Shown piece after piece: positions 3,199 to 61,727 of a stretch of 64,000 nt of DNA. The translations under genes and the position numbers were made by a program. Positions within the stretch are counted from its first letter, which is position 1. The number at the start of each line of letters is the position of its first letter. The notes below the pieces were generated by a model that ran no database searches, was not told the DNA's origin, and worked only from the letters and a program-made list of their open reading frames with translations. Source of the DNA: Minisyncoccota bacterium (lineage in GTDB: Bacteria > Patescibacteriota > Minisyncoccia > JAHIHE01 > JAGLIN01); the NCBI GenBank assembly GCA_041661265.1, contig JBAZUT010000005.1, positions 27,038-91,037 on the forward strand, read 5' to 3'.

Positions 3199-3247
3199 AC
3201 CCCATTCTTTGTTAAAATGTCAGTATGCTAAAATGTTAAAATGATTT

Positions 3248-4156
3248 ATGCAGTCAACCCGACAGATCAGAAGACAAATACAATCGATAAAAAGCACTTC
3301 ACAGATCACGAAAGCGATGCAGATGGTGGCTGCGTCCAAGATGAGAAAAAGCCAGGAAACGGCGCTTATGGCAAGACCGTATGCGCAAGCTGCACTGAAA
3401 CTGCTTGAGAATGTCAGTGAATCGGTCGAGCCCAAACAGCATAGCCTCCTGGAGAATAGGGACGTCAAAAATGTGTGCATACTTGTCGTCTCTTCGGACA
3501 AAGGTCTTTGTGGCGGACTGAACAGCAATGTCATCAGAGAGACGCTAAAGATCATGGAGCAGCATAAGAGCAAAAACATCTCGCTGATCACTGTTGGAAA
3601 AAAAGCTGAGAACTATTTCAGAAAAACCAAGAAAATTTCCGCTTCTTTTTCCGGCTTCGGGGATACGATCGAACTCAAGGAGACTCTCCCGCTTTCAAGG
3701 GTATTATTGGATGATTTCACAAGCAATAAATATGACAAGATCGTTGCCGTATATACCAATTTCGTTTCCACATTGAAACAGGAAGCGAAAGTAAAGAAGC
3801 TTCTCCCGATAACAAAAAGAAGCATAGAGGAAACGATCGAAGAAATCGAAGACATGGCCATTAAAAATAATAATGGAGAGAAAAATGGCGGAAACGGCAT
3901 CGAATACAAATTCGAGCCTTCAGCCGATGAGGTGCTTTGCAGGCTCCTTCCTAATCTCGTTGAAACGCAAGTTTATCATATCGTGCTGGAATCGAATGCT
4001 TCGGAACACAGCGCAAGGATGGTGGCAATGAAAAGCGCGACCGATAACGCCCGGGAAATACTCGGCGACCTGAAACTTTCGTATAACTATATCAGGCAGC
4101 AGAAGATCACGCAGGAAATAAGCGAAATATCGGCAGGCGTGGCGGCGCAGGAATAA
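3248..4156 (+). CDS. atpG: F0F1 ATP synthase subunit gamma
   Basis: N-terminus IRRQIQSIKSTSQITKAMQMVAASKMRK and C-terminus ITQEISEISAGVAAQE are typical of gamma. Confidence 0.9.
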   Translation: MQSTRQIRRQIQSIKSTSQITKAMQMVAASKMRKSQETALMARPYAQAALKLLENVSESVEPKQHSLLENRDVKNVCILVVSSDKGLCGGLNSNVIRETLKIMEQHKSKNISLITVGKKAENYFRKTKKISASFSGFGDTIELKETLPLSRVLLDDFTSNKYDKIVAVYTNFVSTLKQEAKVKKLLPITKRSIEETIEEIEDMAIKNNNGEKNGGNGIEYKFEPSADEVLCRLLPNLVETQVYHIVLESNASEHSARMVAMKSATDNAREILGDLKLSYNYIRQQKITQEISEISAGVAAQE

Positions 4157-28531: not shown

Positions 28532-29413
28532 TTATTGATATTTAGGAACAATTTTCGACCAAGTATCAGGGTTTCCATCATAACACTCATAAATATGCAC
28601 ATATATTAAATCGTATTCACAATTATCCTCATTATTCAAGGTGTATTCTTTTGTCTCTCCCGCCTTTATTCCATCATCGTTTCTCAAAAAATCCTTATAA
28701 TTCAACGCGGTCCCGCCCCAAACAACTCCTCCGCGCTTGCATCTTCCCGCGTAAAATTCAACATTATCAACATCCCGAGTTCCTGTATTCTTAATTTTTA
28801 AATAAATATTCTTGCTTAGGTCTGAGCTTTGCTTGATAATTTCAATTCTTTTCTCCATACACGATGTTGGCTCTTCTATTGTTATCGTGGCTGAATCTCT
28901 AATATTATAACCACCCCCAAGTCCGCCAGGTCCGCTTCTGACACTACAAAATATTAAAACCCTATAGTCATCGGGATAAATTGACCATTTAAAATATTTA
29001 TAGTTATTTGCTTTTATGTCCCATTCAAATTCACGAGACTGCTGATCCCAAATAAATGGATTTTTAGAAACGCTGTCCATTTTAAATTCTGTTCGCGTTT
29101 GTGAATATACTACATCGGGTCTTGTTCCAGCAATATCCATTCTACAAACTCCGCCAATACCATCAAGAACAGTTATTTCAACCGGTTCTCCATAGGCATA
29201 AGTACGTTTATTGGTTTTAATATATTGAGATATATTAGGCTTCTCCGGCTCTGATTTTAGAGAATCGGCCTCAGGCTTCTCCGGCTCTGATTTTAGAGAA
29301 TCGGCCTCAGACTTCTCCGGCTCTGATTTTAAGATACTGATAAATAACAGAGTTATTATCCCAAAAATGACAAACAACAATGCAATTGTTTTAATAACAT
29401 GTTTATATATCAT
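28532..29413 (-). CDS. secreted/anchored hypothetical protein with SEPEK(S/P)EADSLK tandem repeats
   Basis: Signal-anchor followed by ~2.5 copies of a 12-aa repeat (36-nt DNA repeat at ~29224-29330) and a Cys-containing globular domain. Confidence 0.55.
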   Translation of the reverse strand: MIYKHVIKTIALLFVIFGIITLLFISILKSEPEKSEADSLKSEPEKPEADSLKSEPEKPNISQYIKTNKRTYAYGEPVEITVLDGIGGVCRMDIAGTRPDVVYSQTRTEFKMDSVSKNPFIWDQQSREFEWDIKANNYKYFKWSIYPDDYRVLIFCSVRSGPGGLGGGYNIRDSATITIEEPTSCMEKRIEIIKQSSDLSKNIYLKIKNTGTRDVDNVEFYAGRCKRGGVVWGGTALNYKDFLRNDDGIKAGETKEYTLNNEDNCEYDLIYVHIYECYDGNPDTWSKIVPKYQ

Positions 29414-29551: not shown

Positions 29552-30127
29552 TTAGCTTAATATCACTTCCCCATCCCCGCAGCCCGCCATCCCCGCAGCA
29601 TTTCCTTCGTCAGTGTCTATATGGCAAGCCCATGCATAAGTCTTGTCGACCCGCGCAATGACATTGTCAAAAATCAGCCCTCTCTCTCCCCCCACCTTAA
29701 CTTTCATCACATCACCGTCTTTGATGCTTATTCCGGCCGCATCCTTAGGAGTCATATGGACATGCCTCTTGGCGACGATCACGCCTTCTTTTATATCAAT
29801 GCTCCCTTTGGGTCCCGTGACAGTTATTCCCGGAGTATCTTTTATATTTCCCGAAAGGCGGAGGGGCGGATTTATCCTGAAATTCCTCGCTTCAGTCTCC
29901 GTTATTTCAACCTGTGTGTAATTCCTTATGGGTCCCACTATGCGCACCCTTTTCATCTCAAATTCATCGTCTTTGATATCTACGGTCTCATTTGCCGCAA
30001 ACATACCGGGCTGAGACAGCTCTTTCTTGACCGTCAGTTCGGCCCCGGCGCCAAACAGCTTCTCAAAATCATCTTTATTGAGATGTATGTGATGAGCAGA
30101 GATCTCAACTTTAACTATTTTGTTCAT
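29552..30127 (-). CDS. pduL: PduL-type phosphate acyltransferase (phosphotransacetylase/propanoyltransferase)
   Basis: Two PduL repeats; SAHHIHL, RVRIVGP and HVHMTP blocks. Confidence 0.8.
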   Translation of the reverse strand: MNKIVKVEISAHHIHLNKDDFEKLFGAGAELTVKKELSQPGMFAANETVDIKDDEFEMKRVRIVGPIRNYTQVEITETEARNFRINPPLRLSGNIKDTPGITVTGPKGSIDIKEGVIVAKRHVHMTPKDAAGISIKDGDVMKVKVGGERGLIFDNVIARVDKTYAWACHIDTDEGNAAGMAGCGDGEVILS

Positions 30128-30223
30128 ATTTTTGCTTTGTTAATCAATAAACCTAACTTATTATAACATAAAAATCTCTAATAAGAACAGCTCTTTTCCA
30201 TAGGGACTGTCCTTTGAATGCCG

Positions 30224-31303
30224 CTATTTTCCACATATGATCTTTCTATATACCTCTTCATATCCATCGACCATTTTCTCAATGTTAAAATTTTCCCGGA
30301 CACGCTTCCGGCAATCAGACCGCTTGATCTTGCCTATGTTTTTTATGGCCTCTATCATTCCCTCTTCGTTTTCGACGATAAAGCCGGTTTTTCCATGTTC
30401 CACGACCTCCGGAACCGAACCGTTCCCAAAGGCTATAACGGGCGTCCCGCAAGCCATCGCTTCGATCATCACGAGCCCGAAAGGTTCCTGCCAGCGGACG
30501 GGAAAAAGGAATGCCTTGGCTCCGCCCAAAAAATCGGACAGCCTGCTCCTGTCCAAAAAACCCAGATCTTCGATCTCTCCCTGCTTGATATATGGCTTCA
30601 CCTTCTCGGCATAAAAACCATTGCCCCACGCGCTCCCGGCAATTTTCAATTTTTCTTTGGACCTTGTCGCGACATTCACCGCCGCATCGACTCCTTTTTC
30701 ATAGGTATATCTCCCGAGATATGCAAGATATCCTTCGTGATCGCCCCTGAATTTGAATCTGCCAAGATCAAGGCCGTTATAGACCGTTCTAACGTAATTC
30801 AGGTCCGGCATGCCCTTTCTCTGATTGTCGCTTATGGAAACATAATATGCCCTGTTCCTCCACGCGCAATAGCCGATCGCATTGTTCCAGGCGGAATCCA
30901 TCGGATCATGAAGCGTAAAAACCGTCGGAGTCTTTGTCTGATTCACGAACGGAAGAAGCTTCGGCACAAGATGGAAAGCATGGATTATATCATATTTCCC
31001 GCTCCCCGCATCTTCATACATCTTCGAGGCAAGGAGCTGTTCATAGACCGAAAGCTGAAGCTGATCATGAAATCCTCCATTCATCGGCTTGTCTTTCAGT
31101 TTGTAGAATGAAACCATGTCATTGGATATTTTTTTTGCCTCGATCCCGGAATCCGAAGAACAATAAAAAGTGACGTCGTGTCCGCGTTTTGACAATTCCC
31201 TAACCAAAATTTCCGCGAGGTCCATCGGAGCATAGATTATCTCTTTCGGAAGCGGACAGGAAAATTCATTCGTACAATAGATCGCTATCCTAAGTTTTGA
31301 CAT
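30224..31303 (-). CDS. family 4 glycosyltransferase
   Basis: FGLVMIEAMACGTPVIAFGNGSVPEVVEHGKTGFIV is a GT4 signature. Confidence 0.8.
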   Translation of the reverse strand: MSKLRIAIYCTNEFSCPLPKEIIYAPMDLAEILVRELSKRGHDVTFYCSSDSGIEAKKISNDMVSFYKLKDKPMNGGFHDQLQLSVYEQLLASKMYEDAGSGKYDIIHAFHLVPKLLPFVNQTKTPTVFTLHDPMDSAWNNAIGYCAWRNRAYYVSISDNQRKGMPDLNYVRTVYNGLDLGRFKFRGDHEGYLAYLGRYTYEKGVDAAVNVATRSKEKLKIAGSAWGNGFYAEKVKPYIKQGEIEDLGFLDRSRLSDFLGGAKAFLFPVRWQEPFGLVMIEAMACGTPVIAFGNGSVPEVVEHGKTGFIVENEEGMIEAIKNIGKIKRSDCRKRVRENFNIEKMVDGYEEVYRKIICGK

Positions 31304-31305
31304 TT
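31213..31305. repeat. copy 1 of an imperfect ~93-nt direct repeat (the 5' end of the GT4 gene plus its upstream region)
   Basis: 82/93 identical to 32286-32378 by manual alignment. Confidence 0.7.
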
Positions 31306-31397
31306 ATTATTTATTTGACATATTAAACTTTCTCGACCATATCCTGAGGAAATCTTCAGCTCCCGACCATGGAAACCGAATTTATGCATTATTAATA

Positions 31398-32234
31398 TTA
31401 TTTTCCTTTTAACTTTTTTTGTTCTTGTATTTTTCTAAAACTTAGCCTGCTGATCACTGGTTTCCCCGTTTTCACTTCAATCTGTTTTCTGGCGTTTCCT
31501 GCTATACTTCCGCCTTCACGCGCCACCTTTCTATTTTCCGGAAAAGTTTTGGGCTCCCGCTTCTTGGAAATTTCAGTGGTCGCCGTTTCTGCCAGCATGT
31601 TCAAGACCAATTCTAAATTCGTCATATTATCCCGCAAATTTTCTTTTTTCAAATCTTTATGCTTTTTATAGTCTTTTGTTTTCAATCCTGCCCAGGCAAA
31701 AGAAATATCATCGGTTAAAACAGCGAATTCATCGCTTGTTTTTACGCCCCGCTCATTCCACTCATTAGTCAGATCTTTTCTGATTTCAATGCTTTTCAGA
31801 CGCAAGTCAACCCAGTTTTTAGAATAACCCATTTTAAGATAGGTTGCCAGTGCGCGGTGAATGGCTTTTTCAGGATCCTCAGTTTCTTCGATTCTTTCAT
31901 AGCCCACCCGCGCCAGCCAAAGCTTGAACGGCTCCGCCTTCGGCGAAGGAATAGACTGAATTATCCTGAACATTGTTTCTGTATCCGCCGCATCAGTTAG
32001 ATAAAACTTGCCATCTGCAGCTTGCATTTTCAGTTGGTTACATTTTGTAACCACCTCGCTTCCTTCTTGTTTTAAGCGGTTTTTTAGCACTTTCCAATAA
32101 TTCCTCGGATCAACGCTCGCATTTAACGCATCGACTATATCCACTACCGAAAAATACCATAGTTCTTTTTCATCATCCCAAATCCGACGGATTTTCTTAC
32201 CTTCAAAAATCGCTAATTGCTTATCTTTTTTCAT
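31398..32234 (-). CDS. Bro-N domain / DNA-damage-inducible protein D (DinD)-like protein
   Basis: N-terminal LAIFEGKKIRRIWDDEKELWYFSVVDIVDAL fits the Bro-N pattern; the rest resembles DinD. The track ORF (to 32306) runs into the repeat copy; the ATG at 32234 (MKKDKQL...) is preferred. Confidence 0.5.
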   Translation of the reverse strand: MKKDKQLAIFEGKKIRRIWDDEKELWYFSVVDIVDALNASVDPRNYWKVLKNRLKQEGSEVVTKCNQLKMQAADGKFYLTDAADTETMFRIIQSIPSPKAEPFKLWLARVGYERIEETEDPEKAIHRALATYLKMGYSKNWVDLRLKSIEIRKDLTNEWNERGVKTSDEFAVLTDDISFAWAGLKTKDYKKHKDLKKENLRDNMTNLELVLNMLAETATTEISKKREPKTFPENRKVAREGGSIAGNARKQIEVKTGKPVISRLSFRKIQEQKKLKGK

Positions 32235-32285
32235 TAAATATTTTAATGATTGAATAATTTGTAACTTGTTTTTCCGTATACGCTT

Positions 32286-32378
32286 CCGCCAAATCCATTG
32301 GAGCATAGATTATCTATTTCGGAAGCGGACAAGAAAATTCATTCGTGCAATATATGGCTATTTTAAGTTTTGACATTT
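32286..32378. repeat. copy 2 of the ~93-nt direct repeat
   Basis: See copy 1. Confidence 0.7.
32314..32376 (-). pseudogene. duplicated, truncated 5' fragment of the GT4 gene (MSKLKIAIYCTNEFSCPLPK*)
   Basis: Matches MSKLRIAIYCTNEFSCPLPKEIIY... of the 30224-31303 gene and ends with an in-frame TAG. Confidence 0.6.
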
Positions 32379-32462
32379 GATTTTTAATTTATCCGATCAT
32401 AAGAATCGGATCTCTATTGAAATACTATATACTGCAGTAATTTTATGCCATCATTAGAAAAA

Positions 32463-33128
32463 TCAGATGACAAATTTCTTCTTGAATTTACATTTAGGAT
32501 AATTAGAACAACCAAAGAATTTACCAAACCTGCCATTTATCTCTCTTAGTTTGCCGCCGCATGTCGGGCAAATATCGTTTGTCTTATTTTCTACGACTTC
32601 ATCGTCTTTATTTACCAGTTTTATCAACCTGAGCAATTCATCACCATCGACCAATTCAATCTGTTTATCTTCTGCGTATTTCTCAGCCTCTGTTGTAAAG
32701 ATGTTTGTTGTTATAAAGATTCCCTTTCCTTGCGAAAGCTTATCCATCAATGTACCAACAAATTCTCTAACATTACTAACCGATACTTTCGAAGTTATAT
32801 ATTTCTTGCACTGAATGTAATGTTTTATTCCGTTTTTCGTTACGACTACATCCACTCCTCCGTCATGAGAACCACCAACTTTTTCCGTTTGATATCCAAG
32901 TCGAAAATACATGTCTGCAATATAATTTTCAAAGTCATTAGGTCGCAATTTTCTTAATTTTCCAATTAAATCCTTATCTATGGTCCACTCGTTGACTTGA
33001 TTGATTTTTTTCTCAATCTTCTTGTTTTTTAAATAACGTGGTATCCATACTTCGACAGCTATTTTCATCAATGCAATAATAATTAGCAAAACCCATACTT
33101 GCCACAGAGAAAGAAACATTGTCAACAA
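32463..33128 (-). CDS. Mrr-like restriction endonuclease domain protein with an N-terminal transmembrane helix and a C-terminal topoisomerase-type C4 zinc ribbon
   Basis: Catalytic block DVVVTKNGIKHYIQCKKY fits the Mrr/PD-(D/E)xK pattern; CPTCGGKL...CSNYPKC zinc ribbon. Confidence 0.65.
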   Translation of the reverse strand: MLTMFLSLWQVWVLLIIIALMKIAVEVWIPRYLKNKKIEKKINQVNEWTIDKDLIGKLRKLRPNDFENYIADMYFRLGYQTEKVGGSHDGGVDVVVTKNGIKHYIQCKKYITSKVSVSNVREFVGTLMDKLSQGKGIFITTNIFTTEAEKYAEDKQIELVDGDELLRLIKLVNKDDEVVENKTNDICPTCGGKLREINGRFGKFFGCSNYPKCKFKKKFVI

Positions 33129-33271
33129 ACTTTTAAAAAATTCCCATTGATCGAAAGCAAAATGATTTATATTGTTTTTAATTAATAATTATTAATTCCC
33201 TATTCGCCTATTCGCGCGAATTAGAGAACCGATAAGATAGCGCAAATCAAGATAATTGATATTAGAGGTAT

Positions 33272-34285
33272 TTACAAATAACTCACCTTCACGCTATTCA
33301 ATCTCTTTTCAATTTCGCTTCGATCCAAAATCCCATTCTGCGCGCCATATTCGCTGACCACGTTCCCGCTGTTCAAAATTCCGAATTTCAATGCATCTTC
33401 CAGTTTACCAGTGATCAGATATCCCCCAAGCATGGCCGCACCAAACGCATCTCCGGCGCCTGTCGCATCCACTCCCCGATTGTCCGTTCCCGGCGCAAAA
33501 ATAACCTGATCCCCTCCGCCATAAACATATGCGCCATTTTTTCCATCAGTTACGACCACAATTTTCGGACCCCATTTTTTCATGAATTTTGCCAGGACCG
33601 AAGGATCGTTCATCTGATTATAATCCAATTTAATGTTCTTATCTCCCTGGACCAGCTCTATTGCTTCATCCTTGTTCACGATTAGCATTTCGGTTATCCT
33701 GAAATATTCTTTCAGATTATCAGTTCCGCCGGCCAGCTGAGCTCCGCCCGGATTCCAGGCAAGCTTTATCTTGCCCTCAACCACGGCTTCCTTTATCTCA
33801 TCCAGGCTATTCTTCCACTGGTTCGCAAGAGAAGTGAGATATATCCATTTGCTTTTTCCGATCAGATTTTCTTTCTTCAGCTCAAGAAAGTCGCTTGCGC
33901 CCTTATAAACAAAGATAACCCGGTCGCCGCCTTTTTTATCCAACACGATCAAAGAGAATCCCGTTCTCCTTGCCTCATCGTTCTGGATCAATCCAGTGTC
34001 TATCCCAAGTTTTTTCAAATTATTGACTATCGCTTTTCCGTCATCATCGTTTCCCACTTTGCAGTTCACGGCGACTTTGAGCCCGAGCTTTTGGAAAGTG
34101 GCCGCTGTGTTGCAGGCTCCTCCTCCGAAATTGAATATCACCTCTTCGCTTTTTATCTTTGCGCCATATTCAAATCCCAGGATCACCTGCTCCGTCAGAT
34201 TCTCAGGAGTTTCAATGATCTTTCCCTTGTCGGTAATGAACGTTATGTCGCGAGTCGCCCCGCCGATCGTAATTATGTCGAACAT
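33272..34285 (-). CDS. PfkB-family carbohydrate kinase (ribokinase-like)
   Basis: GG motif near the N-terminus and C-terminal DATGAGDAFGAAMLGGYL. Confidence 0.8.
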   Translation of the reverse strand: MFDIITIGGATRDITFITDKGKIIETPENLTEQVILGFEYGAKIKSEEVIFNFGGGACNTAATFQKLGLKVAVNCKVGNDDDGKAIVNNLKKLGIDTGLIQNDEARRTGFSLIVLDKKGGDRVIFVYKGASDFLELKKENLIGKSKWIYLTSLANQWKNSLDEIKEAVVEGKIKLAWNPGGAQLAGGTDNLKEYFRITEMLIVNKDEAIELVQGDKNIKLDYNQMNDPSVLAKFMKKWGPKIVVVTDGKNGAYVYGGGDQVIFAPGTDNRGVDATGAGDAFGAAMLGGYLITGKLEDALKFGILNSGNVVSEYGAQNGILDRSEIEKRLNSVKVSYL

Positions 34286-34433
34286 AATTTTAGTATTTAG
34301 TATTTAGTATTTAGTATTTAGCTGGATGCCAAATACCACATACCACATGCCATATACCTCATGCCAGTTCATTTCGATCATTGATACATTAAAACACTTG
34401 GCATACCATAAACAGTTTACTGTATAACAACAC

Positions 34434-36005
34434 TTAGGCTTTGCATCTTATCTTTTTTTCTATCAAGCTTCCAAGAACCATATCCTTGGGCTTTTCCGTG
34501 CCCAAAACATCAAGAAGCGTCGGCGCAACATTTCCAAGAACCCCGTTGTCATGCAATTTCAGGCTTTCCCTCTTCAGTCCCTTTTTTGCGATAATGAACG
34601 GAACGGGATTTTTGCTGTGCATGGTCATTATCTCTCCCGTTTTCAGATCAACCATTTCATCGGCATTGCCGTGATCCGCAGTCACTATCACCATTCCTCC
34701 GCCCTCCACGGCTTTTTCGATCACCATTGCCATGCACTTATCCAGAAATTCAACCGCGGAAATGGTCGCCTTCATGTTTCCCGTATGCCCTACCATATCG
34801 GCATTGGCATAATTAACAGCAATAAAATCATATACGCTGTATTCGATATTCGAGACAAGAACTTTCGTGATGTCCATTGCGGACATTTCCGGCTTCTGGT
34901 CATAGGAAAAAACGTTCGGAGACATGATCTGCTCCCTATCCTCTCCGCCAACCGGATCCTTATGTCCGCCATTTATAAAATATGTTATATGAGGATATTT
35001 CTCGGCTTCAGCTATATAGAGCTGTTTTTTCTCTCTCAAAACATGGGGTATGGTATTCTCCACCGATTGGGAATAATAAGCGACCTGCACAGGAAGGTCC
35101 GGACCGAAATCCGTCAGTGTACACGCAAATATATCTTTTAACTTATGAGATCTGTTCTCATAACCGATAACTTTATTCGTCACAAATAATTTCGTGAATT
35201 GCCTCGCCCTGTCCCCCCGGATATTGAAATGAATGATCGCATCATTGCTTTTTATTTTCGCAATAGGTTTGTTCTTGCTGTCTACTATTACCGTCGGAAT
35301 GATAAATTCATCCGTAAGGCCCTGTGAATAGGAATATTTTATGGCCTCTTCGGGAGATTTGCTTTTCCATCCCTCCCCCATGACCATGGCATCATAAGCT
35401 TTCTGAAGCCGCTCCCAATGTTTGACGCGGTCCATGCCATAATATCTTCCGCCTATCGTGGCGATCTTTCCTATTCCTATCTCTTCTATTTTTTCGTTCA
35501 GATCCTGCAGAAAGATCAGCGCTCTTTTCATAAAAGTATCCCTTCCGTCAGTGAAAAGATGCAGATAAACCTGCTTCACCTTCTTCGTTTTCGCCAGCCT
35601 CAAAAGAGCGTAAAGATGGTCCGGATCGCTATGAGGACTGTCTATTTCGGAAAGAAGTCCGATGAAATGAAGATTTGTTTTCTCGACTATTGCATGATTC
35701 ATAGTTCGAAGTATTCTCGGATTTTTGAAGAATTTACCCGACTCGATGTCTTCCCTGATTATCTGCGAATCCTGTTTGACGATCCTTCCCGCGCCGATGT
35801 TTATATGTCCCGCTTCGCTCCCACTCCTTTCATTCTCGGAGAGTCCCACTGCAAGACCGGTGGCATTCAGGGTCGTATAGGGATACTTTCGGACCAAGCT
35901 GTCAAAAAAAGGTTTTTTGGCAAGTTCAATCGCATTAGCCCTGCTTTTTGGCGCAACACCCCATCCATCAAGGATTATAAGAATATTTGTCGGTTTTTTT
36001 GGCAT
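34434..36005 (-). CDS. gpmI: 2,3-bisphosphoglycerate-independent phosphoglycerate mutase
   Basis: ILIILDGWGV N-terminus, ...VTADHGNAD... and overall iPGM blocks. Confidence 0.9.
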   Translation of the reverse strand: MPKKPTNILIILDGWGVAPKSRANAIELAKKPFFDSLVRKYPYTTLNATGLAVGLSENERSGSEAGHINIGAGRIVKQDSQIIREDIESGKFFKNPRILRTMNHAIVEKTNLHFIGLLSEIDSPHSDPDHLYALLRLAKTKKVKQVYLHLFTDGRDTFMKRALIFLQDLNEKIEEIGIGKIATIGGRYYGMDRVKHWERLQKAYDAMVMGEGWKSKSPEEAIKYSYSQGLTDEFIIPTVIVDSKNKPIAKIKSNDAIIHFNIRGDRARQFTKLFVTNKVIGYENRSHKLKDIFACTLTDFGPDLPVQVAYYSQSVENTIPHVLREKKQLYIAEAEKYPHITYFINGGHKDPVGGEDREQIMSPNVFSYDQKPEMSAMDITKVLVSNIEYSVYDFIAVNYANADMVGHTGNMKATISAVEFLDKCMAMVIEKAVEGGGMVIVTADHGNADEMVDLKTGEIMTMHSKNPVPFIIAKKGLKRESLKLHDNGVLGNVAPTLLDVLGTEKPKDMVLGSLIEKKIRCKA

Positions 36006-46241: not shown

Positions 46242-47696
46242 TTATAAAAATAATTTAGATGCGCTCTCGATCAATCTCACGATAAAAGGCGGAAAGAATA
46301 ATCCGAAGCCCACAAGAATGACAGCGACAACCGCAAGCGGAGCTGTCGTTAGAAATCCGAATTCGCCTTTCTTTATCCCGGCAGGAACTTCCCCGAATAC
46401 CATTGATGTCGCATGCCTCAGGAAACCCACAAATACGATGATTATGCCGGCCATTGCAAGCGCGACTATTCCGGGATAACTTGATATTCCCGCGGATAAT
46501 ATATAGAATTCCGTGAAAAAGAGGCCGAATGGAGGGACTCCGGTTATCGCAAAAACCCCAAAAAGGAACAAAATACCTGTAAATGGAAGTGCGGACAAAA
46601 CCCCTCTGACATTCGATATTTTGGTTGAGCTGTATTTCAGAAAGATGTTTCCGCTGCAAAGAAAGAGCAGTGATTTTGCAAGTGAATGGAAGACCATATG
46701 AAGAAGTCCCGCCAAGACTCCCATCCCTCCGAATCCGAAACCCAAAGCTATTATGCCCATATGTTCGATCGATGAATAAGCAAGCAGGCGCTTATAGTTT
46801 ACCTGGACCAAAATGATAAAAGCTGCGATGATGATCGATACGATTCCGAAAAGAACCAGAAGTCCGCTTGAAAAATCCGAACCTATCATATTGTCAACTA
46901 CGATCTTGTTCCTCAAAATTGCAAAAAATGAAACGTTCAGTAGCACTCCGGAAAGAAGCGCGGAAAGAGGTACTGGCGCTTTGGAATGAGCATCGGGAAG
47001 CCAGGTATGCATCGGAACAAGTCCGGTCTTGGTGCCGAATCCCACCATAATGAAAATGAAAGCTACCTTTATGGCCAGCGGATCCTGGATCGCACCGATA
47101 CTTATCAGGTCTTTCCAGCTCACTATCAGCTCAGTTCCCTCAAGATGCGACGAAGACACTGCAAGCAATATTAGCGTTCCAAGAAAACCCAGAAGCAATC
47201 CGACCGAATTTATGATCAGATATTTCCATGCCGCCTCCATTGCTGATGGTTTGTTGTAAAAACTGATCAGGAACGCCGTGGACAGCGTCGTAGCTTCAAT
47301 TGCGATCCACATCAGTGCCGGATTAGAAACCATCACGGCAAAAAACATTGTAAAAATAAAAAGATTCAGAAGGATGAAGAACTGCTTGATCCTGCTGAAA
47401 CCTACTATATCCTTCTTGTTCTCTTCGTGAAGATATCCCATAGAATAGATGCCTGCCGAAAAACTGCCCACCGTGATGATAAAGATCAGCAGCGCGCTGA
47501 GCGAATCTACATAATAATATGTCGAGGAATATATTCCGCTGGCGATCGTTTGCGATATAACGCTTGCCGAAAAGAATATTTCCAGGGCCGAAGCCGCGAA
47601 CATTATATGTTTTATATATATTTTTTGCTCCCTTTTGACGAACGATACGGATATTGCCGCAAGGATGGGAACCAGAAGAAGAAATGTTAATAGCAT
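46242..47696 (-). CDS. NuoN/NuoM/HyfF-like antiporter-type membrane subunit
   Basis: 484 aa with ~14 transmembrane helices and proton-pumping antiporter-like blocks (WLPDAHSKAP). Confidence 0.7.
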   Translation of the reverse strand: MLLTFLLLVPILAAISVSFVKREQKIYIKHIMFAASALEIFFSASVISQTIASGIYSSTYYYVDSLSALLIFIITVGSFSAGIYSMGYLHEENKKDIVGFSRIKQFFILLNLFIFTMFFAVMVSNPALMWIAIEATTLSTAFLISFYNKPSAMEAAWKYLIINSVGLLLGFLGTLILLAVSSSHLEGTELIVSWKDLISIGAIQDPLAIKVAFIFIMVGFGTKTGLVPMHTWLPDAHSKAPVPLSALLSGVLLNVSFFAILRNKIVVDNMIGSDFSSGLLVLFGIVSIIIAAFIILVQVNYKRLLAYSSIEHMGIIALGFGFGGMGVLAGLLHMVFHSLAKSLLFLCSGNIFLKYSSTKISNVRGVLSALPFTGILFLFGVFAITGVPPFGLFFTEFYILSAGISSYPGIVALAMAGIIIVFVGFLRHATSMVFGEVPAGIKKGEFGFLTTAPLAVVAVILVGFGLFFPPFIVRLIESASKLFL

Positions 47697-49306: not shown

Positions 49307-51361
49307 TTATTTCGTTACCCAAATAAGAAGGATTATGATCGTCATAAAAATATACAAAAGATACAGATTGATATTTCCGCATTGGATCCTCTTTGCTATG
49401 TCCGAGATCCCTATGATCATGCGGGATACGGGTCCATAGATATAGCTTTTATATATATTTCCGATCCCAAGCGTGACAGTGCTGGATTTGGTGAAATATC
49501 TTATATTCGCATCATGATATTCGATATCGATCTGTTTTGTCGGCTTTAATATTCCGCTGAACATGGAAATTATCGAACGGGAAAAACTGGTAGCCGTAAT
49601 TTCCATCCGCGGATTTAGATTTGCTCCGCAATCCCATGTTCCATAGATCCTTTCCTTGCAAGATCCGGAGATCTTTTTTACCGCAAAATAGGCAATGGCC
49701 GCAAAAAGAACTATTAAAATAAATATCTGCATCATTGCAAGAGAAGCATGGTCGCTCCTGACACTGATGACTCCATTGCCGGCAGGCATAAACGGAATCT
49801 CATTTGAGAAAATCAGAAGACTATTCGTAATATTTCCGAGATAAATAACTACCCGATCGGAAAACACACCGAGAGCCAGGCACAGAAATGCAAGAACGGA
49901 CATTCCGAAAAGCAGAGTCCTGTCGGATTCCTTGGCGTTTTCGCTTTCATGGCTCCGGGATTTTGCAAGAAAAGTCACGCCGAACGCCTTCACAAAACAT
50001 GCGGCTGCAAGCCCTCCCGTAAATGCGAGAGAAACTATGGCAAAGATGAATACGCTTTTCTCAAATATTCCGAAAGTTCCGACTCCAGCAAAAAGCGCCT
50101 GATAGGTCAGCCATTCGCTCGCAAATCCGTTGAAGGGAGGCAGCGCTGATATTGCCACTGATCCTACAAGAAAGAAAAGCGCAGTATATGGCATTTTCTT
50201 GATCAATCCTCCATATTCTTCGATGTTGCGCGTGTGAGTTGCAGAAACGACTGATCCGGCTCCCAAAAAGAGAAGGGCTTTGAAAATAGCATGATTCATG
50301 GTATGGAAAAGAGCCGCAGCAAATGCGAGCGCAGCCAGCGTCATATTTTGCGCAGATATGAAAATCAGAGAGCTTCCAAGGCCCATCAGGATTATACCGA
50401 TATTTTCAACGCTATGGTATGCGAGCAATCGCTTGATATCGTGCTCGGTTATGGCATATAAAACGCCCAGGAGCGATGACACTGCACCAAGCACCAAGAC
50501 CAGCATCCCGAACCACATCGCATTGGAAGGGATAACATCGAAGAATAGCCGTATGATCATGAATATTCCAGTTTTTATCATTACTCCGGACATCAGCGCG
50601 GAAACCTGGCTTGGGGCCGCAGGATGCGCCTCCGGAAGCCAGATATGCAACGGTATAATTCCCGCTTTTGTTCCGAATCCCACCAGCATCAGAAGCGATA
50701 TTATTGCAAAATAGAACGGGGAAATATTCGCCGAAGCAAGTCGGATCGCATCGAAATCAAAAGAACCGGTCGCTGAATATATGAGCATGAACGCCAGGAT
50801 TATTCCCCCGGTCGCAATATGCGTCATTATGAAATATAAAAACCCTGCCTTAATATTCTCCTTATGGTCATGCTCAAAGATTACGAGAAAATACGAGACC
50901 AGAGACATCAGCTCCCAGACAACCAAAAAATATAAAGCGTCATTCGAGGTCACCACCAGCATCATGCTCGCGATGAATATATTATAGAAAAATCCGAACA
51001 GCCCTATATTGTACTTTCCATAGAATTGGCGCATATATCCGATCGAATAGACGGAGCTGAGAAGCGCGACCAATGAGATTATAAAAACGAAAAAAGCTGA
51101 CAGAAGGTCAACTTTCATATTTATCGGAAAAAGGAAAAATGTTTCGGTAGCTTTGAATGAAAAATTTGAATTGGATAGGATGACAGATACAGCATATAAA
51201 AGTCCCATGAAGGACCCGAAGATCGCGAAGCTATTGCCCCAAATATTCTCCAAATTATCATCTTTTTTTAGTACGGATATGAGGAGCGCTCCGATTGCGC
51301 CAAGAGCGAATATACCGAGTGAAATAAATAAACCTTCCTGAATAAAAAAAGCTGGAAACAT
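49307..51361 (-). CDS. NuoL/HyfB/MrpA-like antiporter-type membrane subunit
   Basis: 684 aa; HIWLPEAHPAAPSQVSALMSGVMIKTG conserved antiporter block. Confidence 0.75.
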   Translation of the reverse strand: MFPAFFIQEGLFISLGIFALGAIGALLISVLKKDDNLENIWGNSFAIFGSFMGLLYAVSVILSNSNFSFKATETFFLFPINMKVDLLSAFFVFIISLVALLSSVYSIGYMRQFYGKYNIGLFGFFYNIFIASMMLVVTSNDALYFLVVWELMSLVSYFLVIFEHDHKENIKAGFLYFIMTHIATGGIILAFMLIYSATGSFDFDAIRLASANISPFYFAIISLLMLVGFGTKAGIIPLHIWLPEAHPAAPSQVSALMSGVMIKTGIFMIIRLFFDVIPSNAMWFGMLVLVLGAVSSLLGVLYAITEHDIKRLLAYHSVENIGIILMGLGSSLIFISAQNMTLAALAFAAALFHTMNHAIFKALLFLGAGSVVSATHTRNIEEYGGLIKKMPYTALFFLVGSVAISALPPFNGFASEWLTYQALFAGVGTFGIFEKSVFIFAIVSLAFTGGLAAACFVKAFGVTFLAKSRSHESENAKESDRTLLFGMSVLAFLCLALGVFSDRVVIYLGNITNSLLIFSNEIPFMPAGNGVISVRSDHASLAMMQIFILIVLFAAIAYFAVKKISGSCKERIYGTWDCGANLNPRMEITATSFSRSIISMFSGILKPTKQIDIEYHDANIRYFTKSSTVTLGIGNIYKSYIYGPVSRMIIGISDIAKRIQCGNINLYLLYIFMTIIILLIWVTK

Positions 51362-53608: not shown

Positions 53609-54430
53609 ATGAAAAATCCATACTATCCGTACGATGCTGAAATAATCAAGGTTGAAGAATTGACTCCCATCAATCGCCTTTTCACTTTCCAGATAAAAGA
53701 CAAAGCTTTCAAAAGCAAATTCAAATTCCGCCACGGACAGTTTTTCATCCTTTCGGTTCCGGGCTTCGGAGAAGCGCCTTTCGGCTTTTGCTCAAGCCCG
53801 ACGATCAAAGACAGCTTCCAGGCTTCAATAGACAAGCGCGGAGGCCTGACAAACAAGCTTTTCGAGCTTAAAAAGGGCATGGCAGTGGGGATCCGCGGAC
53901 CTTATGGGAACGGCTTCGATGACGTGAAAATAAAGACCAGGAATCTTGTGCTTGTCGCGGGAGGGTGCGGACTGTCCCCGCTTCGTACCGTCATCCAGGA
54001 TGCGAGCATGAATCCCGGCAATTTCAAAAAAATACAGATCTTTTATGGCTGCAGAAATCCCGAACTCCTGTCGTTCCAGAAGGACTACAAAGCGTGGAGC
54101 AAAAATATCGAAGTCAATCTGACCGTCGACGCGCCTGACAACAAGTGGAAAGATAATGTCGGAGTTGTGACGAACCTCCTGACACAGGAAAAGATCAAAA
54201 GTGATTCCGTTGCGATCCTTGTGGGGCCTCCTATCATGTATAAATTCGTCGTGAAAAAACTCCTGGAGCTCGGATTGAAAGAAGAAGATATATATGTTTC
54301 TCTGGAAAGAAGAATGCATTGCGGAATCGGCGTTTGCCAGCACTGCGCGCTAATCAATGGCGGCTATGTCTGCACCGACGGCCCGCTCTTCTCCTATGCA
54401 GAGATCAAGAATGTGCCGGAAGGAATCTGA
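53609..54430 (+). CDS. group 3b [NiFe] hydrogenase gamma subunit (FAD/NAD(P)-binding, C-terminal [2Fe-2S])
   Basis: Ferredoxin-NADP reductase-like fold (RHGQFFILSVPGFGEAPF; LVAGGCGLSPL) plus C-terminal CGIGVCQHCA..C. Confidence 0.75.
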   Translation: MKNPYYPYDAEIIKVEELTPINRLFTFQIKDKAFKSKFKFRHGQFFILSVPGFGEAPFGFCSSPTIKDSFQASIDKRGGLTNKLFELKKGMAVGIRGPYGNGFDDVKIKTRNLVLVAGGCGLSPLRTVIQDASMNPGNFKKIQIFYGCRNPELLSFQKDYKAWSKNIEVNLTVDAPDNKWKDNVGVVTNLLTQEKIKSDSVAILVGPPIMYKFVVKKLLELGLKEEDIYVSLERRMHCGIGVCQHCALINGGYVCTDGPLFSYAEIKNVPEGI

Positions 54431-54576
54431 AAAATTTAAAATTGAAAGATCAAAATGGAAAATGACAGCTTAAAGTTTAAAAATGAATCCAAGAAACAAC
54501 CTCGCAAAAATAAAAGATAATTTTAACATTTTTAATTGTCAATTTAATTTTTAATATTTACATTTTACATTTATTT

Positions 54577-60246: not shown

Positions 60247-60434
60247 CTTTGTAATAAATTAAAGATATGAGTTCCAAAATTAAAATATTGAAATGTAAAA
60301 TTAAAAAATCAAATTGTAAAATGACAGTTAAAAATTTAAAATGGATCAGATAAACGGCTTTTTGATATAATAATGATCATCATTTTGACATTTTAATTTG
60401 TCATTTTTATTTTTGATATTTACATTTTAAACTT

Positions 60435-61727
60435 TTAGAGGTTTCTTCTCAATTTCTCCGCCCTAGCGACCCTTTCTACGGCAACGGCATATGCCGCAAG
60501 GCGGGTGCTGATCCCGAGATCTTCTTTCTTGCTCCAGACCGCATCGAACGAGCTTTCCATTATTTTCTTCAATTTGCCGATATTTTCAGCCTCATCCCAA
60601 TAATAGTTCTGAAGATTCTGAACCCATTCAAAATAACTCACGATGACTCCGCCGGCGTTAGCCAGAATATCCGGAATGACCACGATCCCCCTTTTCTCCA
60701 ATTTTGTATCCGCTTCGGGAGTGACAGGGCCGTTCGCAAGCTCGATTATGAGCTTCGCTTTTATCTGCGAGGCATTCTGTTCAGTTATCACATTCTCGAG
60801 CGCAGATGGCATAAGGACATCCACATCCAGTTTCAAAAGCTGTTCGTTCGTTATAGTCCTCGTCCCGGGGAATCCGACGACGGACCTGGTGTCTTTTTTG
60901 AATTTCATGATCTTTTTGATGTCGAGAGCGTCATGCCCGCCAATCCCGTCTTTTCCTTTTTCATTTTTAGTTTTAACTTTTTCATTTGAAACTATTCCGC
61001 CTCTTGAGTCTGACACAGCGACGACTTTATAGCCCAGCGCGTTCAGGATCTCCGCGGCAAACGAACCCACATTTCCAAATCCCTGGATGGCGATCGTCAG
61101 CTTCTTGGGATCGAGTTTCATTTTTTTGATCGCTTTCTCAAAAACATAAACACCTCCCTGAGAAGTCGAGTATTTTCTTCCTCTCGCTCCGCCAACCTCG
61201 AGAGGTTTTCCCGTGACAACGCCGGGAACATTGTATCCCTTGATCCTACTGAATTCATCCATCATCCATGCCATGATCTGCGGGGTCGTATAGACATCGG
61301 GAGCAGGTATATCCTTCTCGGGACCGATAAAATCTTTCAGCTCCTGGATATATCCCCTTGAGAGCCTTTCAAGCTCCCCATTCGAAAGCTTCGACGAATC
61401 GACAATGATCCCGCCCTTGCCTCCTCCATAAGGAAGTCCGGCAACGGAACATTTCCACGTCATCCATGCGGAAAGCGCTTTAACCTCGGAAAGATTGACC
61501 TTTGGATGGAACCTGATGCCTCCCTTGAACGGCCCGAGAGCATCATTATATTGAACGCGATACCCCCTGAAAACCTTCATCTCCCCCGAATCCATCTTGA
61601 TCGGGATTGAGACTTCAAGGATCCTCTTGGGATTTTTCAGTATCTCCAGAACATTCTTGTCCAATTTCAAAAGCGAAGCTGCATTCTCCAGCTGCTTGGT
61701 GGCATTCGCGAAAGGATTCATTGCCAT
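60435..61727 (-). CDS. Glu/Leu/Phe/Val-family amino-acid dehydrogenase (glutamate dehydrogenase-like)
   Basis: [10 protein letters not shown] and GGGKGG catalytic region; C-terminal Rossmann [10 protein letters not shown]. Confidence 0.9.

What the first reader, a model, noticed from the sequence alone, without database searches (positions are those of the whole stretch)
31213..33128. Bro-N/DinD-like gene plus Mrr-like endonuclease inserted between a GT4 gene and a sugar kinase, bounded by a ~93-nt direct repeat carrying a duplicated GT4 5' end
The sequence 31213-31305 (the GT4 start codon region plus its upstream sequence) reappears at 32286-32378 with ~88% identity. The second copy still encodes MSKLKIAIYCTNEFSCPLPK and then hits a stop. 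The DinD/Bro-N-like gene lies exactly between the two copies. An Mrr-catalytic-domain protein with a transmembrane helix and a topoisomerase-type zinc ribbon follows immediately. This looks like a small acquired stress/defense islet inserted by recombination at the 5' end of the GT4 gene.
Basis: seen in the sequence. Interest (0 to 1): 0.6.

Follow-up and report, generated by a model that had tools for sequence, protein, structure and literature searches.

The report
Recombination scar in accessory-gene hot spot
In an uncultured Paceibacterota (CPR) bacterium, a Bro-N family gene sits between two diverged copies of the first 92 bases of a glycosyltransferase gene, next to a membrane-anchored Mrr-type nuclease gene. 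The site carries different small genes in every relative examined, so this is an ordinary accessory-gene hot spot that has kept an unusually readable recombination scar.

Summary
A direct repeat, 31211-31316 versus 32284-32389 (106 nt, 86%), is the strongest repeat in the 64-kb window. Its core is the first 92 nt of the GT4 coding sequence.

The upstream copy still reads MSKLKIAIYCTNEFSCPLPK and then a stop. Only the Bro-N gene (31398-32234, minus strand) lies between the copies. The Mrr_cat plus zinc-ribbon gene (32463-33128) lies outside them.

All profile hits hold. The Bro-N protein is a full-length member of the PADLOC candidate family PDC-S13. It fails the DinD cut-off.

None of five related genomes has this arrangement. 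The position upstream of GT4 carries a different gene in each:
- an unknown 279-aa gene
- a NERD nuclease
- DUF559 (in two genomes)
- a distant Bro-N paralogue

The cargo genes compared in four of the genomes all have lower GC3 than the flanking core genes.

The two GT4 copies differ in 9 codons: 7 synonymous, one R/K, one nonsense (P <= 1e-4 for random decay). They therefore diverged as working genes in separate lineages. The structure is a scar of recombination between lineages, not a local duplication.

Verdict: two separately acquired accessory genes in a hot spot flanked by core genes. This is a known kind of feature, and a defence role is not proven. One oddity is unexplained: two relatives carry gene-end remnants of similar length, about 90-95 nt.

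The parts
33272..34285 (-). PfkB-family sugar kinase. It is a core gene and forms the upstream border of the variable slot.
   Evidence: Pfam PfkB E = 1.4e-40. Orthologues are 88% (L084) and 64-65% (L085, L174) identical and occupy the same position.
32463..33128 (-). Accessory gene 1: a membrane-anchored PD-(D/E)XK nuclease. It has an N-terminal hydrophobic helix, an Mrr_cat domain and a C-terminal four-cysteine topoisomerase-type zinc ribbon.
   Evidence: Pfam Mrr_cat E = 1.4e-29 and Zn_ribbon_Top1 E = 2.9e-12. PADLOC matches cover the nuclease domain only. D89, D93, Q106, K108 and four Cys are invariant across 25 homologues. GC3 is 34 against 49-54 in the core. The nearest homologue (77%) lies in a different genomic context.
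32379..32462 (-). Spacer between the Mrr stop codon and copy B. It is probably the native upstream region of the displaced GT4 allele.
   Evidence: The last ~10 nt before the ATG (AAAAATCAA) match the region upstream of GT4 in L084 and L083 better than the sequence upstream of copy A does. This is an inference.
32284..32376 (-). Copy B: a displaced remnant of the GT4 5' end (codons 1-31), with a nonsense change at codon 21 (TAG at 32316-32314).
   Evidence: 81/92 nt identical to copy A. It differs from copy A in 9 codons: 7 synonymous, 1 R/K, 1 nonsense. tblastn finds GT4 residues 1-31 at 93.5% identity.
31398..32234 (-). Accessory gene 2: a 278-aa Bro-N family protein, a member of PADLOC candidate family PDC-S13 and of phrog_15286.
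   Evidence: Pfam Bro-N E = 2.1e-9. PADLOC PDLC04920 E = 1.3e-130, full length. phrog_15286 E = 2.4e-117. More than 8000 homologues, the best 120 of them 78-92% identical. The AF2 model is confident only for the N-terminal domain.
31304..31397 (-). Spacer between the Bro-N stop codon and the GT4 start codon. It is part of the inserted segment.
   Evidence: It shows no similarity to the GT4 upstream regions of relatives. Nucleotide homology between Bro-N genes of different genomes ends within about 11 nt of the stop codon.
31211..31303 (-). Copy A: the 5' end (codons 1-31) of the intact GT4 gene.
   Evidence: It carries four derived bases (positions 14, 15, 84, 87) where copy B agrees with all three relatives.
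30224..31303 (-). GT4-family glycosyltransferase. It is a core gene and forms the downstream border of the slot.
   Evidence: Pfam Glycos_transf_1 E = 9.2e-26 and Glyco_transf_4 E = 2.9e-10. Orthologues are 86, 83 and 70-72% identical. Its first 90 nt are the most conserved stretch of the gene at nucleotide level.

Best explanation
The interval between the core genes PfkB and GT4 is a hot spot for accessory genes in this Paceibacterota lineage. In this genome it holds two separately acquired single genes.

The first encodes a membrane-anchored Mrr-type PD-(D/E)XK nuclease with a zinc ribbon. It is most likely a DNA-targeting defence nuclease or a selfish nuclease.

The second encodes a Bro-N/PDC-S13 protein. 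It has a confidently modelled N-terminal Bro-N domain, a family generally regarded as DNA-binding, and a very strongly constrained helical C-terminal part. It is a candidate phage-defence or DNA-transaction factor.

The direct repeat is a recombination scar. DNA from a related but diverged lineage recombined at this locus. One crossover was homologous, inside a flanking core gene. The other junction was illegitimate, at position +92 of GT4. As a result one lineage's GT4 5' end was left behind as a 92-nt remnant (copy B, since inactivated by a stop codon), and the other lineage's 5' end (copy A) now heads the working gene.

Shown: the repeat, the synonymous pattern of its differences, the variability of the slot, the compositional difference of the cargo, and the domain content. 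Inferred: the recombination route (illegitimate recombination facilitated by homology, or replacement of a gene end by an integrating element), which copy is resident, and the functions of both proteins.
For: Repeat: it is real and is the strongest in the window.

Divergence pattern: the copies differ in 9 codons, 7 synonymous, 1 R/K and 1 nonsense. With 11 random substitutions, two or fewer non-synonymous codons occurred in 0 of 50,000 trials (kappa 1) and in 1e-4 of trials (kappa 3). Copy A versus copy B (81/92) is as diverged as orthologues from different species (75-83/92). Each copy has its own derived sites.

Variable slot, gene order in transcription direction:
- window: PfkB | Mrr | GT4' | Bro-N | GT4
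- L084: PfkB | 279-aa unknown | GT4
- L083: 437-aa | PfkB' | NERD | GT4
- L085: PfkB | DUF559 | 85-aa | GT4
- L174: PfkB | DUF559 | GT4
- L176: Bro-N paralogue (54%) | 237-aa | GT4

Composition: cargo GC3 is lower than core GC3 in all four genomes compared.

Independence of the two genes: the nearest Mrr homologue and three close Bro-N homologues lie in unrelated contexts.

No element structure: nucleotide homology between Bro-N genes is confined to the coding sequence plus 11-17 nt at most on either side, so there are no element ends. No recombinase is among the genes called on 16 kb around the site.

Similar scars elsewhere in the neighbourhood: iPGM 3'-end copies flank a Fic gene in L085 (91%, 88 nt). 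A PfkB 3'-end remnant lies in L083.

Nuclease: the active-site residues and four Cys of the Mrr-like protein are invariant.
Against: - No allele was found with Mrr directly abutting GT4, and no donor-like Bro-N-GT4 arrangement. The direction and the exact route of the event are therefore not demonstrated.
- Sliding-window identity of GT4 to L083 and L084 shows no clear donor/recipient breakpoint.
- The three gene-end remnants have similar lengths (about 90-95 nt). Random illegitimate junctions would not predict this. It hints at a more specific mechanism.
- Neither protein has a demonstrated function. Structure prediction and a fold search of the Bro-N protein gave nothing for its C-terminal half.
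Confidence: 0.6

Rival explanations
1. Site-specific integration of a small element. The Bro-N gene plus its own copy of the GT4 5' end would form a mini integrative cassette, or the last remnant of a larger integrated element. It would have inserted inside GT4 and supplied a replacement gene end. Phage 21 and e14 do this at the 3' end of icd in E. coli. The two repeat copies would then be attL and attR.
For: - The geometry is what gene-end replacement by an integrating element produces: an intact hybrid gene plus a displaced fragment with mainly synonymous differences.
- A second single-gene case has the same shape. In L085 a Fic gene lies between two iPGM 3' ends of about 88-95 nt.
- Remnant lengths are similar in three cases.
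- Integration of phage 21, e14 and NC-SV within icd is documented in PMC12803456. That those elements carry a replacement 3' end is from my own knowledge.
Against: - No integrase or other recombinase lies in the 1-kb insert or among the genes called on 16 kb around it.
- Bro-N genes in other genomes share no flanking sequence beyond 11-17 nt.
- Two of the three other contexts examined have no flanking repeat.
- No identical core is visible at the repeat boundary. The only common string is a GCGGAA hexamer shared by two junctions, read by eye from the and alignments.
Confidence: 0.15
2. Nuclease-driven homing without an intron. A free-standing nuclease gene in the slot (the Mrr-like gene or, less likely, Bro-N) cuts the homologous locus of a related genome. 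Repair then copies the gene together with flanking sequence, leaving a diverged, cut-resistant gene end and the displaced original. The mobile endonuclease ORF at the 3' end of atp6 in Allomyces mitochondria left this kind of structure (own knowledge).
For: - Three different PD-(D/E)XK-type nuclease families (Mrr_cat, NERD, DUF559) occupy the same slot just upstream of GT4 in different relatives. A GIY-YIG gene fills the neighbouring PTAC|AckA slot in L083.
- The first 90 nt of GT4 are unusually conserved at nucleotide level between species (84-91% for the two closest relatives and 81% for L085, against 70-87% and 58-74% elsewhere in the gene). Repeated co-conversion of flanks would produce this.
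Against: - The gene actually bracketed by the repeat is Bro-N, which has no recognisable nuclease domain.
- The analogous scar in L085 brackets a Fic gene, which is not a nuclease.
- Membrane anchoring is unusual for a homing enzyme.
- No cleavage site can be tested here.
Confidence: 0.12
3. Local tandem duplication of the GT4 5' end, followed by insertion of Bro-N and neutral decay of the spare copy.
For: This is the simplest way to obtain a direct repeat. Copy B does carry a stop codon.
Against: Seven of the nine differing codons are synonymous, which random decay essentially never produces (P <= 1e-4). Six of the seven changes specific to copy B are synonymous. Divergence between the copies equals that between species.
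Confidence: 0.04
4. An assembly chimera that joins two co-occurring strains.
For: The source is a metagenome-assembled genome, and related strains do co-occur in such samples.
Against: A 16.3-kb stretch from a separate ENA assembly is 100% identical across the whole structure. A Logan contig from another sample is identical across Bro-N/GT4. The copies share no exact run longer than about 16 nt, so no k-mer bridge exists. The junction at +92 leads into unique sequence.
Confidence: 0.02

Closest known systems
Core defence / accessory hot spots flanked by conserved core genes (Pseudomonas aeruginosa, PMC10250203; E. coli, PMC10121019)
   Same: A fixed interval between two conserved housekeeping genes holds different small accessory genes in each related genome. 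Many of these are nuclease-like. They differ in base composition from the core, and no mobility genes of their own are present.
   Different: The host is a Paceibacterota (CPR) bacterium. The cargo is single genes rather than multi-gene systems. None of the cargo is a validated defence system. The slot keeps readable gene-end remnants from past exchanges.
Replacement of a gene end by integrating elements (phage 21, e14 and NC-SV in the E. coli icd gene; integration site documented in PMC12803456, replacement 3' end from own knowledge)
   Same: There is an intact hybrid gene plus a displaced terminal fragment. The two form a direct repeat whose differences are mostly synonymous.
   Different: Here it is the 5' end, the insert is about 1 kb with one gene, there is no integrase nearby, and no identical crossover core is visible.
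PADLOC phage-defence candidate PDC-S13 / PHROG 15286 (Bro-N domain proteins of about 280 aa)
   Same: Full-length profile matches: PDLC04920 E = 1.3e-130 over residues 1-274, and phrog_15286 E = 2.4e-117.
   Different: The family is only a candidate. No paper in the searched library mentions it. Its function is unknown.
E. coli DinD (DNA-damage-inducible protein D, NCBIfam NF008573)
   Same: Both have an N-terminal Bro-N domain, and there is weak similarity in a central helical region (residues 140-226, E = 1.6e-6).
   Different: The score is 27.7 bits against a curated cut-off of 242, so it is not an orthologue. Neither SOS regulation nor RecA inhibition can be inferred.
Mrr-type Type IV restriction endonucleases
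   Same: It has an Mrr_cat nuclease domain with invariant D...D...QxK residues. PADLOC mREase_IV models match the nuclease domain.
   Different: There is no N-terminal winged-helix DNA-binding domain. Instead it has a transmembrane helix and a C-terminal topoisomerase-type zinc ribbon. The protein is 221 aa, against about 300 for Mrr. The matched PADLOC mREase_IV models are 317 and 544 positions long.

Membership tests
Bro-N domain family (Pfam PF02498) | Profile match above the curated gathering score | tested here: met
   38.3 bits against a cut-off of 25.6, E = 2.1e-9, profile positions 1-91 of 96. The AF2 model gives this N-terminal domain high confidence, with 10-residue block mean pLDDT of 83-92 over about residues 11-100.
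PADLOC PDC-S13 (phage-defence candidate) | Full-length match to the family HMM | tested here: met
   PDLC04920: E = 1.3e-130, protein residues 1-274 on profile positions 1-274 of 286.
PADLOC PDC-S13 (phage-defence candidate) | Protection against phage | not testable with these tools
   This is a candidate family only. No paper in the searched library mentions it.
DinD (NCBIfam NF008573, equivalog) | Score above the curated cut-off over the full length | tested here: not met
   27.7 bits against a cut-off of 242, and only residues 140-226 align.
Mrr_cat nuclease domain (Pfam PF04471) | Profile match plus conserved PD-(D/E)XK-type catalytic residues | tested here: met
   103 bits, profile positions 1-115 of 115. 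D89, D93, Q106 and K108 are invariant in 25 homologues.
Type IV restriction enzyme Mrr | N-terminal DNA-binding (winged-helix) domain joined to Mrr_cat | tested here: not met
   No Pfam domain lies N-terminal of residue 58. The N terminus is a hydrophobic helix (FLSLWQVWVLLIIIALMKIAV). PADLOC mREase_IV models align only over their C-terminal nuclease part.
Topoisomerase-type C4 zinc ribbon (Pfam PF01396) | Profile match and four conserved cysteines | tested here: met
   46.6 bits against a cut-off of 32. C187, C190, C207 and C213 are invariant.
Integrative element with attL/attR | Direct repeats flanking the insert | tested here: met
Integrative element with attL/attR | A recombinase in or next to the element, and an identical crossover core | tested here: not met
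   No recombinase family appears among the genes called on 16 kb around the site. No identical core lies at the inner repeat boundary.
Accessory/defence hot spot flanked by core genes | Conserved flanking genes with different cargo in related genomes | tested here: met
   Four different cargo sets lie directly upstream of GT4 orthologues in five relatives, all different from the window. The slot is bounded by an intact PfkB in L084, L085 and L174. Only a PfkB 3' remnant is visible in L083, and PfkB is not adjacent in L176.
Accessory/defence hot spot flanked by core genes | Cargo consists of defence systems | tested here: inconclusive
   There are only candidate or partial PADLOC matches (PDC-S13; the nuclease domain of mREase_IV). 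The 279-aa, 437-aa and 85-aa cargo proteins match nothing.

The most novel reading that the evidence does not exclude
Paceibacteria may have a cargo-independent way of inserting single genes at the very ends of core genes, one that always replaces about 92 nt of the gene end. Three scars of nearly the same length were seen in this one neighbourhood. The GT4 5' end (92 nt) lies beside Bro-N here. The iPGM 3' end (about 95 nt including the stop codon) flanks a Fic gene in L085. A PfkB 3' end (about 90-92 nt) lies in L083. If the length is a signature rather than coincidence, these would be a new kind of mini integrative cassette with a fixed-length homology arm. It would be moved either by a recombinase acting in trans or by the host's minimal homology requirement during natural transformation.
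Probability: 0.1. Interest if true: 0.7.

Novelty: new member of a known kind. Interest (0 to 1): 0.3.

Why it matters
The finding shows that the small, streamlined genomes of CPR bacteria also have fixed accessory-gene hot spots between housekeeping genes, here between glycolysis and sugar-metabolism genes. It also shows that cargo at such a spot is exchanged between diverged lineages. The mostly synonymous differences between the two GT4 5' ends are direct sequence evidence for that exchange.

It flags two abundant, uncharacterised protein families as targets for functional work. One is the membrane-anchored Mrr_cat/zinc-ribbon nuclease family. The other is the strongly conserved Bro-N/PDC-S13 family.

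It changes no established picture unless the recurrent remnant length of about 92 nt turns out to reflect a specific mechanism.

Tried and rejected
- GT4 scans of GTDB species genomes and JGI metagenome contigs returned only distant GT4 relatives (43% identity or less).
- No true empty site (PfkB directly abutting GT4) was found. No allele with Mrr directly abutting GT4 was found either.
- The 279-aa cargo protein of L084 has the same length as Bro-N but is unrelated.
- AF2 model of the Bro-N protein from 42 close homologues: mean pLDDT 60. The C-terminal 160 residues are helical but of low confidence. Foldseek against the PDB gave nothing below E = 0.04; the best hit was DdrC at TM 0.23, which is not meaningful. 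A sequence search of the PDB gave no hit.
- The promoter/terminator scan of 30000-34500 did not exceed shuffled expectation.
- Rfam found nothing in the window.
- Sliding-window identity of GT4 to L083 and L084 showed no donor/recipient breakpoint.
- I first read the Bro-N gene as a recently spreading single-gene mobile element, because of 80-92% protein identity across CPR classes. I rejected this. Third-codon-position identity is only 52-57%, and GC3 has drifted to each host's value (22-40). The similarity therefore reflects strong purifying selection, not recent transfer.
- A literature search for PDC-S13 found nothing.
- A DGR-like template/variable repeat pair was considered for the gene-end repeats and dropped. 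There is no reverse transcriptase nearby, and the differences are not specific to adenines.
Full report
**Layout.** All genes in this part of the window are on the minus strand. In the direction of transcription the order is as follows:
- iPGM, 34434-36005
- PfkB kinase, 33272-34285
- Mrr_cat/zinc-ribbon gene, 32463-33128
- a 92-nt fragment of the GT4 5' end (copy B), ATG at 32376 and running down to 32284
- the Bro-N gene, 31398-32234
- a 94-nt spacer
- the intact GT4 gene, 30224-31303, whose first 92 nt are copy A
- a PduL-type phosphotransacylase (Pfam PTAC), 29552-30127

The organism is an uncultured Paceibacterota (Patescibacteria/CPR) bacterium. That is the name NCBI gives to the identical GT4 and Mrr proteins.

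**Checking the observation.** The repeat finder reports 31211-31316 versus 32284-32389, 106 nt at 86%. A blastn of the window against itself gives E = 1.7e-29, and no other repeat in the 64 kb comes close.

In register, 81 of 92 bases match from the A of the ATG to +92, and similarity then ends abruptly. The 16 nt upstream match 10/16, which is no better than between orthologues of different species. Copy B reads MSKLKIAIYCTNEFSCPLPK and then TAG.

The structure is not an assembly artefact. A 16.3-kb ENA contig is 100% identical across all of it. A Logan contig from another sample is identical across the Bro-N/GT4 junction. The two copies share no exact run long enough to mislead an assembler.

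The Bro-N protein is the 278-aa form starting MKKDKQ. Homologues are 276-282 aa, and the longer 302-aa ORF starts inside the repeat. It matches PADLOC's candidate family PDC-S13 over its full length (E = 1.3e-130). It also matches PHROG 15286, a family of unknown function (E = 2.4e-117). It fails the DinD equivalog model by a wide margin, 27.7 bits against 242.

The family is very large. More than 8000 clusters at 90% identity were hit, and 959 clusters at 50% identity score E <= 1e-30. It also occurs on Bacteroidales, Arcobacter and Haliscomenobacter plasmids at 50-59% identity.

The AF2 model is confident only for the N-terminal Bro-N domain. The fold search and the PDB sequence search gave nothing usable for the rest.

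The Mrr-like protein has a hydrophobic N-terminal helix, a complete Mrr_cat domain and a four-cysteine ribbon. D89, D93, Q106 and K108 are invariant, and so are the four cysteines. It lacks the DNA-binding N-domain of true Mrr enzymes. It belongs to a common architecture in Patescibacteria that sources annotate as 'restriction endonuclease'.

**Is it acquired?** GT4 orthologues were found at 86, 83, 72, 72 and 70% identity, and their contigs were fetched. None has Bro-N or Mrr at this site:
- L084: PfkB | unknown 279-aa membrane protein | GT4
- L083: 437-aa unknown | PfkB 3' remnant | NERD nuclease | GT4
- L085 and L174: PfkB | DUF559 nuclease (plus an 85-aa ORF in L085) | GT4
- L176: a 54%-identical Bro-N paralogue and a 237-aa ORF upstream of GT4

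In each of the four genomes compared, the cargo has lower GC3 than the flanking core genes. The slot is therefore a hot spot.

The two genes are not one unit. The nearest Mrr homologue (77%) sits beside a UvrD helicase. Close Bro-N homologues stand alone between unrelated genes: NifU and a collagen-like gene, after rpoC, and inside a pilus cluster.

**What the repeat is.** The 11 base differences between copies A and B fall in 9 codons. Seven are synonymous, one is R/K and one is the stop. Placing 11 random substitutions on copy A gave two or fewer non-synonymous codons in 0 of 50,000 trials (kappa 1) and in 1e-4 of trials (kappa 3).

Polarising the differences with three relatives shows that each copy has its own derived changes. 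Six of the seven changes specific to copy B are synonymous. A versus B (81/92) is as diverged as GT4 5' ends from different species (75-83/92).

Copy B therefore spent most of its divergence inside a working GT4 gene of another lineage. It is not a local duplicate that then decayed. The structure must have arisen when DNA from two diverged lineages was joined. One GT4 5' end was displaced and the other was kept.

I cannot say which copy is resident. Copy B's immediate upstream sequence resembles that of L083 and L084 more than copy A's does, which mildly favours Bro-N plus copy A as the incoming piece.

**Route.** The most economical route is recombination of imported DNA with one homologous crossover in a flanking core gene and one illegitimate junction at GT4 +92. 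This is homology-facilitated illegitimate recombination, known from naturally transformable bacteria (own knowledge).

Two rivals are not excluded:
- Gene-end replacement by a small site-specific element, as phage 21 and e14 do at icd (integration site in PMC12803456; details from own knowledge).
- Nuclease-driven homing.

Against the first, there is no recombinase within the 16 kb of called genes. Bro-N genes in other genomes share no flanks beyond 11-17 nt. Against the second, the bracketed gene has no nuclease domain.

**An unexplained regularity.** A tblastn of the window's core proteins against the related loci found two more gene-end remnants in this neighbourhood.

In L085 the last ~92 coding nt plus the stop codon of iPGM recur downstream of a Fic gene that follows the intact iPGM (1616-1703 versus 3246-3333, 91%). 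In L083 the last ~90 nt of PfkB lie between a 437-aa gene and the NERD gene.

All three remnants are 90-95 nt long and end exactly at the start or stop codon. Three cases are too few to call this a signature. Random junctions would not predict it, though, and it is the basis of the novel reading given separately.

The first 90 nt of GT4 are also the most conserved nucleotide stretch of the gene between species (84-91% for the two closest relatives and 81% for L085, against 70-87% and 58-74% elsewhere). This would fit repeated exchange of this flank together with cargo.

**A correction to my own first reading.** The 80-92% protein identity of Bro-N homologues across CPR classes looked like recent spread of a one-gene mobile element. 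However, third-codon-position identity is only 52-57%, the same as for GT4 between sister species. GC3 has also drifted to each host's value, 22-40. The family is therefore old in each lineage and under very strong purifying selection. That is notable, but it is not evidence of recent mobility.

**Verdict.** The region holds two independently acquired accessory genes in a hot spot flanked by core genes. The direct repeat is a scar of recombination between lineages at the GT4 5' end. A defence role is plausible but unproven: there are PD-(D/E)XK nucleases in the same slot in several relatives and a PADLOC candidate family. This is a new example of a known kind of feature and of modest interest. 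The recurrent gene-end remnant of about 92 nt is the one thing worth a wider census.

Noticed in passing
L085 1616-1703 and 3246-3333 (NCBI GCA_023142595.1, JAGLJF010000002.1): A Fic gene (1794-2876) is flanked by two copies of the iPGM 3' end, 88 nt at 91% identity and about 95 nt including the stop codon. The downstream copy is a remnant. The geometry matches the Bro-N case but lies at a gene's 3' end.
   Followed up: partly
L083 1476-1576 (Logan SRR22388171_86576): A remnant of about 92 nt from the PfkB 3' end (C-terminal 32 aa, 84% identical) lies between a 437-aa unknown gene and the NERD gene. The contig ends before any intact PfkB could be seen.
   Followed up: partly
L170 4363-4563 and 6857-7069 (JGI Ga0247841_10000370): A ~210-nt direct repeat (85%) brackets an AAA_14/DUF4143 ATPase gene plus an 88%-identical Bro-N gene. 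The repeat contains a hairpin motif, CTCCCGATATTTGGCATAATATTGGGAG, which also occurs at the start of the ATPase gene.
   Followed up: partly
window 30224-31303 (first 90 nt, 31214-31303): The first 90 nt of GT4 are the most conserved nucleotide stretch of the gene between species: 84-91% for the two closest relatives and 81% for L085, against 70-87% and 58-74% elsewhere in the gene. This suggests either selection on the 5' mRNA or repeated exchange of this flank.
   Followed up: partly
window 31398-32234 and loci L168, L170, L171: Bro-N/PDC-S13 proteins are 80-91% identical between CPR lineages. Their third codon positions are near saturation (52-57% identical), and GC3 has adapted to each host (22-40). 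Purifying selection is therefore unusually strong on a protein of unknown function.
   Followed up: partly
window 32463-33128 versus L083 1588-2295: The Mrr-like protein and the NERD protein occupy the same slot in two relatives. They share a similar N-terminal membrane segment (38% over 50 aa, pairwise E = 1e-5) but have different nuclease domains. A nuclease domain may have been swapped behind a retained anchor.
   Followed up: partly
window 28532-29413; L083 4255-4497; L084 11748-11764: The neighbouring slot between the phosphotransacylase (PTAC) and acetate kinase genes is also variable. The window has a 293-aa repeat-containing protein with no Pfam match, L083 has an 80-aa GIY-YIG gene, and L084 has nothing.
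   Followed up: no
window 29237-29344: Three tandem 36-nt units, two identical and one at 67%, lie inside the 293-aa ORF. They encode repeats of the type SEPEKPEADSLK.
   Followed up: no
window 54430-54572 and 60291-60436: Two copies of an AT-rich, imperfectly palindromic intergenic element of about 140 nt (76% direct; it also matches in reverse). It has AAAATGACAG / CTGTCATTTT arms. Its predicted fold is no more stable than shuffled sequence.
   Followed up: partly
window 46945-47047 and 50583-50685: A 103-nt similarity at 73% lies between two long minus-strand ORFs (46242-47696 and 49307-51361). It probably reflects paralogous domains.
   Followed up: no
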